This document shows positions 1 through 64,000 of a stretch of 64,000 nt of DNA, in pieces. The DNA lies in NCBI GenBank assembly GCA_035221665.1, contig CM069142.1, forward strand, positions 51,212,001 to 51,276,000, in the 5' to 3' direction. Made by a program: the position numbers. Positions within the stretch are counted from its first letter, which is position 1, and the number at the start of each line of letters is the position of its first letter. Source of the DNA: Okamejei kenojei. Taxonomy: Eukaryota.

Positions 1-3000
1 ATCTCCACGTTTGCGGATGACACTAAGCTGGGGGGTAGTGTTAGGTGTGAGGACGATGCTAGGAGGCTGCAAGGTGACTTGGATAGGCTGGGTGAGTGGG
101 CAAATGCATGGCAGATGCAGTATAATGTGGATAAATGTGAAGTTATCTACTTTGGTGGCAAAAACAGGAGGGTAGACTATTATCTGAATAGTGGCAGATT
201 AGGAAAAGGGGAGATGCAACGAGACCTGGGTATCATGGTACACCAGTCATTGAAAGTAGGCATGCAGGTGCAGCAGGCAGTGAAGAAAACGAATGGTATG
301 TTAGCATTCATAGCGAAAGGATTTGAGTATAGGAGCAGGGAGGTTCTACTGCAGTTGTTCTACTGCAGGGTTTTGGTGAGACCACACCTGGAGTATTGCG
401 TACAGTTTTGGTCTCCAAATCTGAGGAAATACATTCTTGCCATAGAGGGGGTACAGAGAAGGTTCATCAGACTTGATTCCTGGGATGTCAGGACTTTCAT
501 ATGAGGAAAGACTGGATAGACTCGGCTTGTACTCGCTAGAATTTAGAAGACTGAGGGGGGATCTTATAGAAATGTACAAAATTCTTAAGGGGTTGGACAG
601 GCTAGATGCAGGAAGATTGTTCCCGATGTTGGGGAGGTCCAGAACAAAGGGTCACAGTCTAAGGATAAGGGGCAATTCCTTTAGGACCGAGATGAGGAAA
701 ACATTTTTCACACATAGAGTGGTGAGTCTCTGGAATTCTCTGCCACAGAAGGTAGTTGAGGCCAGTTCATTGGCTATATTTAAGAGGGAGTTAGATGTGG
801 CCCTTGTGGCTAAAGGGATCAGGGAGAGAAGGCAGGTACAGGATACTGAGTTGGTTGATCAGCCATGATCATATTGAATGGCGGTGCAGGCTCGAAGAGC
901 CAAATGGCCTACTCCTGCACCTATTTTCTATGTTTCTATGTTTCTATGAATAGAAGTTTAAGATGTGGTAATGCTGTATACTTGCATTTAGAACTAACAG
1001 CCAAACCAGATATTTAAGCAGTAAATTTATGACTCTTGTTTGCCAGGAACACATCTTGTGAATTTGGCCATGTATCCCATGTGATGTTATATTAATTATT
1101 ATAAATGGACCAAATGCTATCAGTGGAAGAATGTCCAAATTTCCAATAAGCATCTCTTCTGAGATAACTTAGAATTGAATTTTCCATTAATCTGACATCT
1201 TCACAAAGCTAATGAGTATAGTCAGTTTCAGAAATGGAAAAAATATATACTCCTTGGCAAAGGAAAAGTTCTGAGACTGGGAGTTAGCCACATTGCCAAG
1301 GAAAAGATTAGCATTTCATCTGACCAACACTATAAATAAATTGTCAGGAAGCACTTAATGTTGTCATGATGTGCAAAGTAGAAATGTTCCATTCTGCAGT
1401 CCATCTCTCACCTTCATGAATACCACTGCAGGAGAAAAAAAAGTCATTCTAAATTAAGAAAGGGGTAGTAACACAAATTACCTAATGATAAAATAATTAA
1501 TAGTTATATTGATAATTAAAACATTGGTGTTCTTTTATTTCAGATCTTAGAACAAATACAATTTTCAAATTAAGTTAGCCCATAGTACTGGAACCTAATG
1601 AGTTTATCATAATAAAAATCTTAGGAAACGGTGTGATTTCATGTAATTTGCTGATAAAGGACGTTAAAGTAACTAAAGAAACTTGAGTTAGGGTTTATAA
1701 ATTAGCTTGTTGTTTTTATAATGTATCATCTTATGTGTGCAGAGACTACAAACACTGTCTCTAAGCCAGCACTGAAAAGGAGCAAAACAAGAAAAGAAAA
1801 TGACAAACCAGCAATAAAGCCCTTGACAACTAAAGGTAATGGCCTGGGTATTGGACTGGGTGAAAAAGGATGTCTGGGTAACAACTGGTCATTTTTTACT
1901 TTTCAAATCATTTCCTAGGCTCTCTCATACAGATTTACAGCGTGAGGCAACCAATCACACAATTGAATGCATATCCTAAAGTCCTCTAGTGAGAATCATC
2001 ATACTCCACTTCCCCCATTGCCACTCCTCCCACCCATCTTCTCAACCTGCCATCTTTCCTTAAGCTCTCCCTCAGTATAAATTCACTAAACTATTTGCAA
2101 TCACCCCCTTTGTCAGTCTATCACATGGTTCGCCATTCTTTTTATTACAATAATTTATGTGAGCCAGTGAGATTGTTTTAATTCACCCATATCCTCCATG
2201 ACTACCCTGACTTACTTTCTTTCAGTATCGTGAAGAAAAACTCCTCCATTTTTTCACTTGCAGTTTCAAAATTTAAACTGTGGAATATCTAACATTCATA
2301 TGGAACTAGTCTACTAAACCAAAACTAGTCTCCACCTTGAATAGCCGAGACCCCATTAAAATAATTTACCTTGGCTACTTTTCATTATAGCCTCATCTCC
2401 ACTTTCTGGAGTCCAGATTGTAGATTTGTGTGAATATTGCTCCCAATTGGTTTATCCAGTCGCTGCTAGATCTACTAGAATTCGATAAGAGAGACTGCGA
2501 GACGGCACAAAGCCCTACACTCATTTGCAAAACAGAATCACCATGGACTGCAAATATGAATTCCATGTTCACGTGGATGCTGATCTCTAACTGTATCTCA
2601 CTACCAACTCTTTTGACTCCTCTACTATCTCATAGTTGTAATATTACCTGCCTGATATTTCCTCCTTTATTTTCCCATGACTAAACATTGGAAAGACCAA
2701 AGCCACTGCCTTTAATCTCAGTCACAATGTTTGTACATAATCCTGTGACTCCATCCTTTTCCTTGGCACTGATCTGCAACTGATCCTTGCTGTTCATAAC
2801 TATGTCTCATGTTTGACCATACCCTTCAGCCCATTTTTCGTGGTCAGTATTTCCCCGCAGCCTAGCCGCAAAACTCTCATCCATGCCATATCACCTCTTG
2901 AGCTGGCTATGGCTTGCTTCTTCTCTGAACTCAGCTGCCCATGTCCTAACCTGCACCAAAAAAAACCTTCACCTATCAGCAGTGCTCTAATGTCCTTTAG

Positions 3001-63000: not shown

Positions 63001-64000
63001 TCAAGTTTTGGATGTCGCTGTGCTGTAGAACTCTGACTTCATTACCTCAATTTTTTTCTAACAAAAGCTGTATTTCTAAGTTTTGTTATTTGGATTGGAA
63101 TCAAATCTCTCATCTGAGAGGACTGGGAGAATTTTACATGGAAGCTTCTTTATTCTTTTGGAACAGCCACTACATTTATGAAAGTGCACACAACCACCCT
63201 TGCATGCTTTTCACTTGGTTTATTTCATTTGGTATATTTGTTATTTGTTACAGACCATGAACTCTCAACATCTAAGACTGCAAAATTGTCTAATCCAACC
63301 CATGTTTATAATGCAGGAGAGAAACAACAGACAGGTATTCAAAAAGTTATCAGGCTCTAAATAATAAGTGATGTAAATACTGACCATGGAAGAAATTTTA
63401 TGCACATTCACCTTTGGCATTTTGCATGATTTTGTTTCTATTAGCTGTTGTGTCTAACAATTTAAGTACATTTATACAATTAATTTTATAGAATTATGCA
63501 CATCAATTTGCTTGAAGTTTGCTTGGTAATTATTTATATTTGACCATATTAAATTAAATTGCTGCAGCAGAGTATTTTAACTATGGCAAAGCTGAGTGCA
63601 TGAGATATTATGGAATCATTAACAAGTGGTCTTTAGGGTGAATAATGTATGAAATATAAAAGATCAGTTTGGTTTAAGTTCAAAGCTAGTGCAAGAAATC
63701 AGATGGAATAACTGTCTATAATAATATGTACCAGGAATATCATCGGGGGTCCACAGCTTTTATTGGAGATAAAACATTCAGATTTCTTATGAATCCATTG
63801 GCTATACTGAAATAAACATATTGATCCAATACAAACACAGTCACAAATGTTTCAGATGCCAAAATAGGCAGATTATTACTCTACTTGGTAAAGACACAAG
63901 ATTTGTATTTGGTTTCTTTGTCATCCTTTACAGACCATAAGCTGCCAATCTCTGACACTTCACATGTGTTTATTCCAACCCCTGTTTCTGAGATTGACCA

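What the first reader, a model, noticed from the sequence alone, without database searches (positions are those of the whole stretch)
1743..64000. Hidden giant array of ~35 homologous symmetric phase-1 exons encoding a modular acidic mucin/proteoglycan-like stalk
Seen: about 34 complete open exons plus one cut at the edge, all on the + strand. Each is a multiple of 3 nt (69-147), bounded by YAG and AG|GTA in phase 1, and mutually homologous (E/D-H/P-E...P...T). They total about 4.0 kb (~1,330 aa), are rich in S/T/P/D/E and are nearly free of Cys. Known: symmetric same-phase exons can be skipped or duplicated without frameshift, as in the CD44 variant exons, the PTPRC A/B/C exons and the ABI3BP Pro/Thr-rich exon series. 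Inference: a lineage-specific, greatly expanded cassette-exon system that could tune stalk length and glycan load combinatorially. The host gene cannot be identified from this window; CD44-like and ABI3BP-like genes are only architectural candidates.
Basis: partly seen in the sequence, partly recalled or inferred. Interest (0 to 1): 0.9.

Follow-up and report, generated by a model that had tools for sequence, protein, structure and literature searches.

The report
Skate ABI3BP repeated-exon array
The window holds the middle of a skate's ABI3BP (target of Nesh-SH3) extracellular-matrix gene, a long run of small, related, frame-neutral exons that is already annotated in related skates, so the exon array is real but the gene is known.

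Summary
I find 34 canonical open exons on the + strand (69-147 nt, all multiples of 3, phase 1-1, YAG...G|GTA, 3,996 nt in all) plus one cut at the window end. This is far above the minus strand and shuffled sequence.

The host gene can be identified. One exon, searched alone, hit only elasmobranch proteins named target of Nesh-SH3 / abi3bpa. These carry fn3 and TARSH_C domains. The window's exons lie colinear with residues 338-1817 of the Amblyraja radiata model and are about 87-89% identical to three skate species. The window is therefore another skate, not human.

The array has three zones:
- Short exons shared with rays and sharks.
- A 46-48 aa exon family found only in elasmobranchs.
- Within that family, a tandem block of 614-627 bp exon+intron units: 10 intact copies and 1 frameshifted copy here, against 11, 13 and 16 in other skates.

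Several copies are decayed. The encoded region is acidic, S/T/P-rich, has one Cys and is predicted unstructured. Predicted isoforms of relatives drop whole blocks of units. Combinatorial splicing and glycosylation remain inferred. Interest is modest.

The parts
1743..1835 (+). Exon, 93 nt, phase 1-1 (zone A, short exons)
   Evidence: 28/30 identical to Amblyraja P0001 at residue 339. Colinear in rays and sharks.
4097..4165 (+). Exon, 69 nt, phase 1-1
   Evidence: 22/22 identical to P0001 at 370.
5387..5455 (+). Exon, 69 nt, phase 1-1
   Evidence: 21/22 to P0001 and 22/22 to Rhinoraja.
6344..6433 (+). Exon, 90 nt, phase 1-1
   Evidence: 27/29 to P0001. 19/28 to Callorhinchus at 380.
9046..9135 (+). 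Exon, 90 nt, phase 1-1
   Evidence: 28/29 to P0001.
11853..11933 (+). Exon, 81 nt, phase 1-1
   Evidence: 25/26 to P0001.
14379..14459 (+). Exon, 81 nt, phase 1-1
   Evidence: 26/26 to Leucoraja.
14913..14996 (+). Exon, 84 nt, phase 1-1
   Evidence: 25/27 to all three skates.
15588..15752 (+). Doubtful exon. The 90-nt form (15663-15752) used in the Rhinoraja and ray models has CAA instead of CAG at its acceptor here. A 165-nt open form from an upstream CAG (15588) is possible.
   Evidence: Sequence read. 26/29 to Rhinoraja at 526 and 23/29 to Hemitrygon, but absent from the Amblyraja and Leucoraja models.
17950..18039 (+). Exon, 90 nt, phase 1-1
   Evidence: 29/29 to P0001 and Leucoraja.
18511..18603 (+). 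Exon with two in-frame acceptors 6 nt apart: AAG at 18511 (93 nt) and CAG at 18517 (87 nt).
   Evidence: The Amblyraja model has three residues, not one, between this exon's peptide and the previous one (positions 587-589), which fits the upstream acceptor.
21326..21409 (+). Exon, 84 nt, phase 1-1
   Evidence: 25/27 to the three skates.
26028..26102 (+). Exon, 75 nt, phase 1-1. Matched only in skates.
   Evidence: 19/24, 22/24 and 19/24 to the skates. Background scores in rays and sharks.
27653..27769 (+). Exon, 117 nt. First member of the 46-aa family (zone B).
   Evidence: HMM E=1.5e-15. 1:1 group across four skates.
32056..32196 (+). Exon, 141 nt, 46-aa family
   Evidence: HMM E=3.5e-21. 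44/46 to Rhinoraja. Absent from the Leucoraja isoform examined.
33299..33415 (+). Exon, 117 nt, 46-aa family
   Evidence: HMM E=1.7e-13. 34/38 to P0001. Absent from the Leucoraja isoform examined.
34084..34206 (+). Decayed copy. An in-frame TAG follows the CAG acceptor, and a start at the TAG would break the frame.
   Evidence: The best match is the position-equivalent stretch of Narcine (20/37, score 96). It is not in the skate models.
34743..34841 (+). Decayed copy. The donor reads AGTA instead of GGTA.
   Evidence: HMM E=9.1e-6. Sequence.
36757..36894 (+). Exon, 138 nt, 46-aa family
   Evidence: HMM E=1.1e-17. 1:1 group in four skates with support 100.
37530..37673 (+). Exon, 144 nt, 46-aa family
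   Evidence: HMM E=1.9e-19. 1:1 group with support 99.
38817..49861 (+). Tandem block of exon+intron units, 614-627 bp each and 80-89% identical to one another. It holds 11 exon copies and is interrupted by two retroelement insertions.
   Evidence: blastn of one unit against the window. Alignment of 11 units.
39056..39198 (+). First tandem copy, 143 nt. A one-base loss in a C run shifts the frame, so this is a pseudo-exon or an assembly error.
   Evidence: 28/32 to the intact Amblyraja counterpart at 891.
39679..39822 (+). Tandem exon, 144 nt
40293..40436 (+). Tandem exon, 144 nt
40917..41060 (+). Tandem exon, 144 nt
41335..43706 (+). Retroelement insertion in an intron of the tandem block
   Evidence: Break in the unit alignment. 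Pfam RVT_1 E=6.1e-13 on 41289-41720.
43865..44008 (+). Tandem exon, 144 nt
44494..44637 (+). Tandem exon, 144 nt
45027..46930 (+). Second retroelement insertion, at a different position of the unit
   Evidence: Pfam RVT_1 E=8.2e-8 on 44964-45707.
46993..47136 (+). Tandem exon, 144 nt
47605..47748 (+). Tandem exon, 144 nt (acceptor GTAG)
48229..48372 (+). Tandem exon, 144 nt
48856..48996 (+). Tandem exon, 141 nt (in-frame loss of one codon)
49477..49620 (+). Tandem exon, 144 nt
50396..50542 (+). Exon that is open from two acceptors: 147 nt from 50396 or 90 nt from 50453. The skate models match only the 90-nt part.
   Evidence: 29/48 to P0001..
51044..51175 (+). Exon, 132 nt, 46-aa family
   Evidence: HMM E=2e-19. 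40/43 to P0001.
51827..51916 (+). Open 90-nt phase 1-1 copy with a GC donor. It is not in the skate models.
   Evidence: Best match is the position-equivalent stretch of Hemitrygon and Mobula (16/26).
52487..52627 (+). Exon, 141 nt. Used as the query of the library search.
53584..53655 (+). Weak, decayed copy
   Evidence: HMM E=0.8. Sequence. Doubtful.
54299..54421 (+). Exon, 123 nt, 46-aa family
   Evidence: HMM E=2.9e-16. 38/40 to P0001.
56586..56726 (+). Exon, 141 nt, 46-aa family
   Evidence: 46/46 to Leucoraja.
58792..58878 (+). Decayed copy. Only the first half is recognisable and there is no canonical donor.
   Evidence: HMM E=2.1e-8..
59249..59382 (+). Decayed copy with stops
   Evidence: HMM E about 0.1. 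Sequence.
59937..60080 (+). Exon with two AG|GTA donors, at 60074 (138 nt) and 60080 (144 nt). The Amblyraja model fits 60074.
63254..63334 (+). Exon, 81 nt (zone C, short units)
   Evidence: 24/26 to P0001.
63934..64000 (+). Exon cut by the window end. It belongs to the short-unit family that is abundant in Callorhinchus.
   Evidence: Callorhinchus unit profile 35.1 bits, E=1.3e-11.

Best explanation
The window is about 62 kb from the middle of the ABI3BP gene (target of Nesh-SH3, TARSH) of a skate. ABI3BP is a secreted extracellular-matrix protein. Its folded domains, an N-terminal FN3 and a C-terminal FN3 plus TARSH_C, lie outside the window. The window encodes the long linker between them, one short peptide module per exon.

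Shown here:
- Every exon is a multiple of 3 and is interrupted after the first base of a codon.
- Every exon ends in G, and nearly every exon begins with A. Any exon can therefore be joined to any later one without a frameshift, and the rebuilt junction codon is Glu or Asp.
- The array grew by unequal recombination between exon+intron units of roughly 620 bp. It also loses exons through splice-site, frameshift and stop mutations.

Inferred:
- The product is an unstructured, acidic, Cys-poor, S/T/P-rich spacer.
- Its length is set by inherited copy number (10-16 copies of one exon among four skates) and by skipping blocks of exons.
- The conserved ...NV(I/F)NPIPEPE... core of each 46-aa module suggests repeated weak binding sites rather than pure filler.
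- O-glycosylation is likely from composition only.
For: Identity of the gene:
- A single exon searched alone found 5 of 1.84 billion representatives at E<=0.001. All are elasmobranch proteins: four are named target of Nesh-SH3 or abi3bpa, and one is a hypothetical catshark protein fragment.
- 4 of the 5 carry fn3 and TARSH_C, with E down to 6.7e-50.
- The window's exons are colinear with residues 338-1817 of XP_032888575.1.
- 1185, 1172 and 1156 of 1327 exon residues are identical to Amblyraja, Rhinoraja and Leucoraja.

Frame neutrality:
- 34 of 34 exons are multiples of 3 ending in G, and 30 of 33 junction codons read E or D.

Coding constraint:
- In the tandem block, exon identity is 88.9% against 80.4% and 87.1% in the flanking introns. 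Indel columns are 0.5% against 3.8% and 7.5%. dN/dS is 0.67 over 36 pairs.
- 11 older long exons form 1:1 groups across the skates sampled (3 or 4 species each), 9 of them with support of 97-100 and the other two nested in a weaker group.

Turnover:
- The tandem clade has 10 copies in the window, 11 in Rhinoraja, 13 in Amblyraja and 16 in Leucoraja. Some species hold sets of identical copies.
- Decayed copies have position-equivalent counterparts in rays.

Skipping:
- Predicted isoforms of relatives lack whole-unit blocks.
- For human ABI3BP, a passage in PMC13518942 reports the disordered region partly spliced out, and a passage in PMC5740500 reports a cluster of 10 related exons.

Disorder:
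- AlphaFold2 on one unit with 21 aligned units gave mean pLDDT 55.8 and no secondary structure.
Against: - No transcript data were available for this species.
- The orthologous proteins are computational predictions (XP_ records). They support exon structure but do not prove expression or regulated skipping.
- dN/dS of 0.67 shows only weak constraint on the young copies. The downstream intron is almost as conserved as the exon, so recency explains much of the similarity.
- The fold prediction used a shallow alignment of 21 rows.
- S-x-E motifs are rare and no glycosylation evidence was found.
- The general function of ABI3BP is itself described as largely unknown (PMC6426741, section 3 read).
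- The folded domains that define the family were not seen in the window itself.
Confidence: 0.85

Rival explanations
1. The array is a constitutive linker. All intact exons are always included, and the phase symmetry is only a by-product of growth by exon duplication, not a device for regulated length.
For: Symmetric phase is required for any exon duplication to survive, so it does not by itself show skipping. The longest predicted isoforms of skates include every unit. Isoform sets from automatic pipelines can overstate skipping (rests on predictions).
Against: Several relatives have predicted isoforms that lack 175-378 aa blocks ending at unit borders. The Leucoraja isoform examined lacks two exons that the Amblyraja and Rhinoraja models include. 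Splicing-out of part of the human region is reported.
Confidence: 0.25
2. Each 46-aa module is a short binding motif, so the array is a multivalent adaptor for a matrix or cell-surface partner. Copy number then sets avidity rather than length.
For: P31 and I32 are at least 90% conserved and a hydrophobic pattern recurs across 21 units that are otherwise 33-54% identical. The same family persists in sharks and rays. A pure spacer would not need this.
Against: No partner is known. Pfam finds no reliable family in 8 exons, only one sub-threshold hit. dN/dS is 0.67 in the young copies. No fold or helix is predicted.
Confidence: 0.3
3. The repeats are a non-coding tandem repeat or transposon-derived sequence whose open frames are accidental.
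For: The young block is a plain 614-627 bp tandem repeat with retroelement insertions, and some copies are broken.
Against: Open phase 1-1 segments number 41 on the + strand against 8 on the minus strand and at most 9 in shuffles. The exons are colinear and 87-100% identical to predicted proteins of three skates, and recognisable in sharks. Indels are 7-15 times rarer in exons than in introns.
Confidence: 0.02
4. It is a mucin, proteoglycan or CD44-like cell-surface stalk gene.
For: S+T+P is 35%. The Leucoraja orthologue is automatically named 'mucin-2'.
Against: The full-length orthologues show fn3 and TARSH_C. None of the 6-7 Pfam families listed on P0001, P0002 and P0004 (3 on the truncated P0003) is named as a VWD, SEA, link or phosphatase domain. 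The repeats are one per exon rather than in one large exon. Hydrophobic residues are common (I 7.9%, V 7.2%, L 5.2%, F 3.9%).
Confidence: 0.03

Closest known systems
ABI3BP / target of Nesh-SH3 of other skates (Amblyraja radiata XP_032888575.1, and the Rhinoraja longicauda and Leucoraja erinacea models)
   Same: Same gene. Single-copy exons match 1:1 at about 87-100% identity, in the same order, with the same tandem exon family.
   Different: The tandem exon has 10 intact copies here against 11, 13 and 16. The first copy is frameshifted here. One exon's acceptor is mutated here but the exon is used in the Rhinoraja model.
Human and other bony-vertebrate ABI3BP
   Same: Conserved C-terminal FN3 and TARSH_C (66-71% identity to a shark query). 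The central region is Cys-poor, mostly 35-40% S/T/P (25% in Polyodon), and repetitive. A cluster of related exons and splicing-out of the disordered region are reported for human.
   Different: The 46-aa unit is not detectable in 0 of 9 bony-vertebrate proteins tested. Their repeats are unrelated in sequence. Net charge is +1.0 to +9.5 per 100 aa against -5.5 to -10.8 in 10 chondrichthyans.
Titin PEVK and elastin exon series (recalled, not tested here)
   Same: Many small, frame-neutral, related exons encode an unstructured extensible region, with variable inclusion.
   Different: Different proteins, compositions and cellular locations. No sequence relation was tested.
Mucin PTS tandem repeats (recalled)
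   Same: Copy-number-variable S/T/P-rich extracellular repeats.
   Different: Mucin repeats usually sit in one large exon and vary by repeat slippage inside it. Here each repeat is its own exon with its own intron.
CD44 variant exons and PTPRC A/B/C exons
   Same: Symmetric cassette exons encoding O-glycosylated stalk segments.
   Different: None of the Pfam families listed on the orthologues is named as a link, transmembrane or phosphatase domain. The number of exons here is far larger.

Membership tests
ABI3BP / TARSH | Colinear sequence orthology to proteins named target of Nesh-SH3 / abi3bp | tested here: met
   The exons map in order to residues 338-1817 of XP_032888575.1, with 1185 of 1327 residues identical.
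ABI3BP / TARSH | C-terminal FN3 followed by the TARSH_C domain (PF21731) | not testable with these tools
   These exons lie beyond the window end. The colinear orthologues P0001-P0004 carry them (TARSH_C E=5e-49 to 7e-50).
ABI3BP / TARSH | N-terminal signal peptide and first FN3 | not testable with these tools
   These lie upstream of the window. P0001 residues 121-215 give fn3-type matches. The signal peptide was not tested.
ABI3BP / TARSH | Long, Cys-poor, S/T/P-rich, repetitive central region | tested here: met
   Window: S+T+P 35.4% and 1 Cys in 1,298 codons. 19 orthologues: 0-2 Cys and 25-40% S/T/P.
Gel-forming or membrane mucins | VWD/cystine-knot or SEA/transmembrane domains flanking a PTS repeat held in one large exon | tested here: not met
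   The Pfam families listed on four orthologues include none named as such a domain. The repeats are split one per exon.
Gel-forming or membrane mucins | Dense O-glycosylation | not testable with these tools
   Composition only. A paper search for ABI3BP plus O-glycosylation returned 7 papers, none on this by title or abstract start.
CD44-like / PTPRC-like variant-exon stalks | Link domain or phosphatase domain and a transmembrane helix in the same protein | tested here: not met
   The orthologues show only fn3-type and TARSH_C matches. The transmembrane helix was not tested directly.
Proteoglycan core protein | Glycosaminoglycan attachment at Ser-Gly sites | not tested
   Not examined beyond noting Ser-Gly in the tandem unit.
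Mutually exclusive exon cluster (as reported for human ABI3BP) | Exactly one exon of the cluster included per transcript | not testable with these tools
   This needs transcripts. Predicted isoforms of relatives include many units together and drop blocks, which is skipping rather than exchange.

The most novel reading that the evidence does not exclude
In cartilaginous fishes the ABI3BP linker has become a long polyanion, opposite in charge to that of bony vertebrates. It is built from an exon family of its own that is still expanding and contracting in skates (10-16 copies of one exon among four species). Under this reading, the array is a heritable and splice-adjustable matrix component adapted to the cartilaginous skeleton or vasculature, for example by binding cationic partners or calcium. 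ABI3BP would then be a general hotspot where different vertebrate lineages have independently built different exon arrays.
Probability: 0.12. Interest if true: 0.6.

Novelty: new member of a known kind. Interest (0 to 1): 0.3.

Why it matters
The finding turns an anonymous 'giant hidden array' into a named gene, so as a discovery it is ordinary. The same exons are already in public predicted proteins of related skates.

Three points are worth keeping:
- The window is a clean example of birth-and-death evolution of frame-neutral exons. Young copies, copy-number differences between species, retroelement insertions and dead exons all sit side by side.
- The module family is confined to elasmobranchs, while bony vertebrates carry unrelated repeat blocks in the same position of the same gene.
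- The linker's net charge is negative in all 10 chondrichthyans sampled and positive in all 9 bony vertebrates sampled.

I found no paper on these points in the searches I ran. The function of ABI3BP is poorly understood, so the linker's behaviour could guide experiments on it.

Tried and rejected
- Pfam on 8 single exons gave no family at the curated cut-off, and one chance hit at E=0.19.
- A word-indexed protein search with one tandem exon, 'longer' mode, found nothing. It only covers proteins of 84-2000 aa, and the closest orthologue has 2289 aa. This is no evidence of absence.
- Rfam gave 0 matches and tRNA search gave 0.
- Tandem Repeats Finder missed the 614-627 bp unit because its longest period is 500. 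It found only an 18-bp array.
- I tested the idea that the acidic linker is a kinase-type S-x-E phosphoprotein like mineralisation proteins. S-x-E is rare in chondrichthyans (0.12-0.45 per 100 aa) and no higher than in most of the bony vertebrates sampled (0-1.39), so I dropped it.
- I tested whether a 46-aa module is about 1.6 copies of the short Callorhinchus-type unit. The short-unit profile hits both halves of many long units, but weakly (E from 1e-5 to above 1). I keep this as a suggestion only.
- The fold prediction gave no structure, so I ran no fold search.
- The joined (spliced) model was not built, searched or folded. All searches were exon by exon, so no whole-linker comparison was made.
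Introns of other skates, synteny and the flanking exons of this species therefore stayed unchecked.
The exon list behind the human 'cluster of 10' in PMC5740500 was not seen.
- I made no attempt to name the species of the window.

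
Full report
**The observation.**
The window has 64,000 bases and no N. A mechanical scan looked for segments bounded by YAG and AG|GTA, 60-180 nt long, a multiple of 3, and open in at least one offset. It gave 107 nested candidates on the + strand and 25 on the minus strand.

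I then counted distinct donor sites that close a segment open in the phase 1-1 frame. The + strand has 41, the minus strand 8, and 30 first-order Markov shuffles average 4.0 with a maximum of 9.

After removing nested alternatives, 34 complete canonical exons remain:
- They are 69-147 nt long and total 3,996 nt, with 1,298 internal codons.
- Acceptors are 20 CAG and 14 TAG. Every exon ends in G.
- A further exon, 63934-64000, is cut by the window end.
- The encoded peptides are 35.4% S+T+P, 14.5% D+E and 6.5% K+R, with one Cys.

**Homology among the exons.**
A profile built from 21 of the longer exons found 26 stretches at E<=1e-4, all on the + strand. These are the 21 seeds, which match by construction, and 5 further copies. 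The best minus-strand hit had E=0.11.

The earlier short exons (1743-26102) are not significantly similar to that profile. Their place in the gene rests on colinearity with orthologues, described below.

**Identity of the gene.**
I searched exon by exon. The joined model was not built or searched, so no whole-linker comparison was made.

- Pfam found no family at its cut-off in 8 exons, only one sub-threshold chance hit.
- A word-indexed search with one tandem exon found nothing within its 84-2000 aa range.
- A full phmmer scan with exon 52489-52626 against 1.84 billion representatives found 5 proteins at E<=0.001, the best at 1.1e-137 with 22 matched stretches.
- Their public names are target of Nesh-SH3 (Amblyraja radiata, XP_032888575.1, 2289 aa), abi3bpa (Hemitrygon akajei), target of Nesh-SH3-like (Narcine bancroftii, Hemiscyllium ocellatum) and a hypothetical protein fragment from Scyliorhinus torazame.
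- Four of the five carry fn3 and the TARSH_C domain at the C-terminus.

The window's exons map in order to residues 338-1817 of the Amblyraja protein. Of 1327 exon residues, 1185 are identical to Amblyraja, 1172 to Rhinoraja longicauda and 1156 to Leucoraja erinacea. The window is therefore ABI3BP of a further skate. It is not human.

A search with the C-terminal domains of a shark orthologue returned 3,893 proteins at E<=1e-10 among 4,843 candidates. Most of the 120 listed carry target of Nesh-SH3 or ABI3BP names from sharks to crocodiles. The rest are 'uncharacterized protein' rows or odd automatic names such as 'mucin-2' for Leucoraja.

**Anatomy.**
- Zone A (1743-26102) has 12 intact short exons of 69-93 nt.
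 - Eleven of these 12, and the doubtful exon described next, have colinear counterparts in stingrays. Most also have them in sharks.
 - In Callorhinchus one is clear (6344, 19/28) and two are weak but colinear.
 - Matches in bony vertebrates are at background level.
 - Exon 26028 is matched only in skates.
- A 13th exon in zone A has a mutated acceptor here, CAA where CAG is needed at 15663. The Rhinoraja and ray models use it. An open 165-nt alternative from 15588 exists.
- Zone B (27653-60080) holds 21 exons of a 46-48 aa family (111-147 nt). P31 and I32 are at least 90% conserved, and the consensus includes ...NV(I/F)NPIPEPE....
- Zone C (from 63254) begins a series of short units. The profile of 17 such units from Callorhinchus matches the cut exon at 35.1 bits. 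It matches both halves of many long units only weakly. The idea that a long unit is about 1.6 short units is therefore only a suggestion.

**The tandem block.**
From 38817 to 49861 the sequence is a tandem repeat of exon+intron units of 614-627 bp, 80-89% identical to the reference unit. It carries 11 exon copies and is interrupted twice by insertions with reverse-transcriptase matches.

Ten copies are intact: nine of 144 nt and one of 141 nt. The first copy (39056-39198) has lost one base in a run of C and is out of frame. This could be a real pseudo-exon or an assembly error.

Across the 11 copies, exon identity is 88.9% against 80.4% upstream and 87.1% downstream. Indel columns are 0.5% against 3.8% and 7.5%. 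dN/dS over 36 pairs of nine 144-nt copies is 0.67. Constraint is present but weak, and much of the similarity is simply recent origin.

**Turnover.**
A tree of 89 units from the window and three skates gives two results:
- It places 11 older units in 1:1 groups across the skates sampled. Nine of these groups have SH-aLRT support of 97-100. Two sit in a weaker nested group.
- It places all tandem copies in one clade (support 98) with 10 rows from the window, 11 from Rhinoraja, 13 from Amblyraja and 16 from Leucoraja.

Sub-types are shared between species. Amblyraja has four identical copies and Leucoraja three, so the block began expanding before these skates diverged and is still changing. The tree has only 46 columns, and 38 of its 73 inner branches are unresolved.

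Besides the frameshifted copy, the window holds further non-canonical copies:
- 34084-34206, with an in-frame TAG after the acceptor. Its best match is the position-equivalent stretch of Narcine, 20/37.
- 34743-34841, where the donor is destroyed.
- 58792-58878 and 59249-59382, which are decayed.
- 53584-53655, which is weak and doubtful.
- 51827-51916, an open 90-nt copy with a GC donor. It resembles an exon used in the Hemitrygon and Mobula models but absent from the skate models.

**Distribution of the module.**
The 46-aa profile finds:
- 23-26 units in the three skates
- 14-15 units in two long ray isoforms
- 3, 9 and 0 units in three shorter ray isoforms
- 9-18 units in four sharks
- 2 weak units in Callorhinchus
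- none in 9 bony-vertebrate proteins

This compares one isoform per species.

Bony vertebrates have unrelated repeats in the same region. For example, Latimeria has a block of about 345 aa and Pelobates one of about 323 aa, both with a period of about 25 aa.

Using fixed offsets for the central region, net charge is -5.5 to -10.8 per 100 aa in all 10 chondrichthyans sampled. It is +1.0 to +9.5 in all 9 bony vertebrates sampled.

**How it most likely works.**
Shown: all exons are phase 1-1 and end in G, and 30 of 33 junction codons read Glu or Asp. Any subset can therefore be joined in frame, and the junction residue is set by the downstream exon.

Shown in predictions only: isoforms of relatives lack whole blocks. 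Amblyraja X30 lacks 240 aa, which is 5 units. Hemitrygon isoforms lack 175-378 aa. The Leucoraja isoform examined lacks two exons present in the Amblyraja and Rhinoraja models.

Reported for human:
- The disordered region 391-818 is partly spliced out during osteoblast differentiation (PMC13518942, passage read).
- There is a cluster of 10 related exons classed as mutually exclusive, lost in mouse and rat (PMC5740500, passage read).
- The first intron is a conserved GC-AG intron (PMC7242645, passages read).

Inferred: the region is an unstructured acidic spacer. AlphaFold2 gave mean pLDDT 55.8 with no secondary structure, from 21 aligned rows. It sits between the folded ends of a matrix protein. 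O-glycosylation is inferred from composition alone.

ABI3BP's general function is described as largely unknown (PMC6426741, outline and section 3 read). Abi3bp transcript marks vascular-type cells in nurse shark spleen (PMC10529500, passage read).

The link between symmetric exon phase and disorder is the subject of PMC3632108. I saw only its search listing and the start of its abstract.

**Novelty.**
The gene is known, and these exons are already in public predicted proteins of related skates. I found no paper on three points: the elasmobranch module family, the skate copy-number differences and the charge contrast.

The searches were:
- ABI3BP with 'exon duplication': 2 papers, 1 listed, PMC5740500.
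- ABI3BP with elasmobranch terms: none of the 12 listed papers contains ABI3BP.
- ABI3BP with repeat and phase terms: none of the 12 listed papers contains ABI3BP.
- ABI3BP with 'shark': 7 papers, none on gene structure by title.

These searches cover open-access papers only. Supplements were closed.

**Verdict.**
- The feature is a new member of a known kind.
- Interest is 0.3.

Noticed in passing
window 41335-43706 and 45027-46930: Two retroelement insertions on the gene's strand interrupt introns of the tandem block at different positions of the unit. They are therefore separate events that happened after the units were duplicated. Both have RVT_1 matches.
   Followed up: partly
window 1-900 and 57600-57900: Fragments of the 3' part of a LINE-like open reading frame. 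They resemble each other by eye, and Pfam found no family in 1-504 or 446-865. A related tail motif recurs near 3000-3200 on the other strand.
   Followed up: no
window 25563-25677: A perfect 18-bp tandem array, 6.4 copies at 100% match, about 350 bp upstream of the skate-only exon 26028.
   Followed up: no
orthologous proteins P0001-P0128 (central regions): The ABI3BP linker is net negative in all 10 chondrichthyans sampled and net positive in all 9 bony vertebrates sampled. S/T/P content and the lack of Cys stay similar. Region borders were fixed offsets, and only one isoform per species was used.
   Followed up: partly
P0064 (Latimeria), P0065 (Pelobates), P0025 (Hemitrygon), P0039 (Callorhinchus): Different lineages carry their own near-identical repeat blocks at the same place in the protein. 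Latimeria and Pelobates have units of about 25 aa, Hemitrygon has a 47-aa unit in about 4 copies, and Callorhinchus has 17 short units.
   Followed up: partly
window 15588-15752: The acceptor of an exon used in the Rhinoraja and ray models reads CAA here instead of CAG. An upstream CAG would give an open 165-nt exon with a run of acidic and basic residues.
   Followed up: partly
window 18508-18518: Two in-frame acceptors lie 6 nt apart (AAG then CAG). The Amblyraja model fits the upstream one.
   Followed up: partly
window 38817-49861; P0001, P0034, P0035: In the three skate proteins the tandem block has a best period of 96 aa, that is two exons. In the window two exon sub-types partly alternate. 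This suggests that two-exon units were duplicated.
   Followed up: partly
listing: Automatic names for this gene are inconsistent: 'mucin-2' (Leucoraja), 'fibronectin type III domain-containing protein 1-like' (Heterodontus) and 'uncharacterized protein' (Mobula, Cetorhinus, Rhinoraja).
   Followed up: no
window 40001-48000 and 56001-64000: GC skew is strongly positive (0.13-0.23) in the parts richest in tandem exons and retroelements. No explanation was sought.
   Followed up: no
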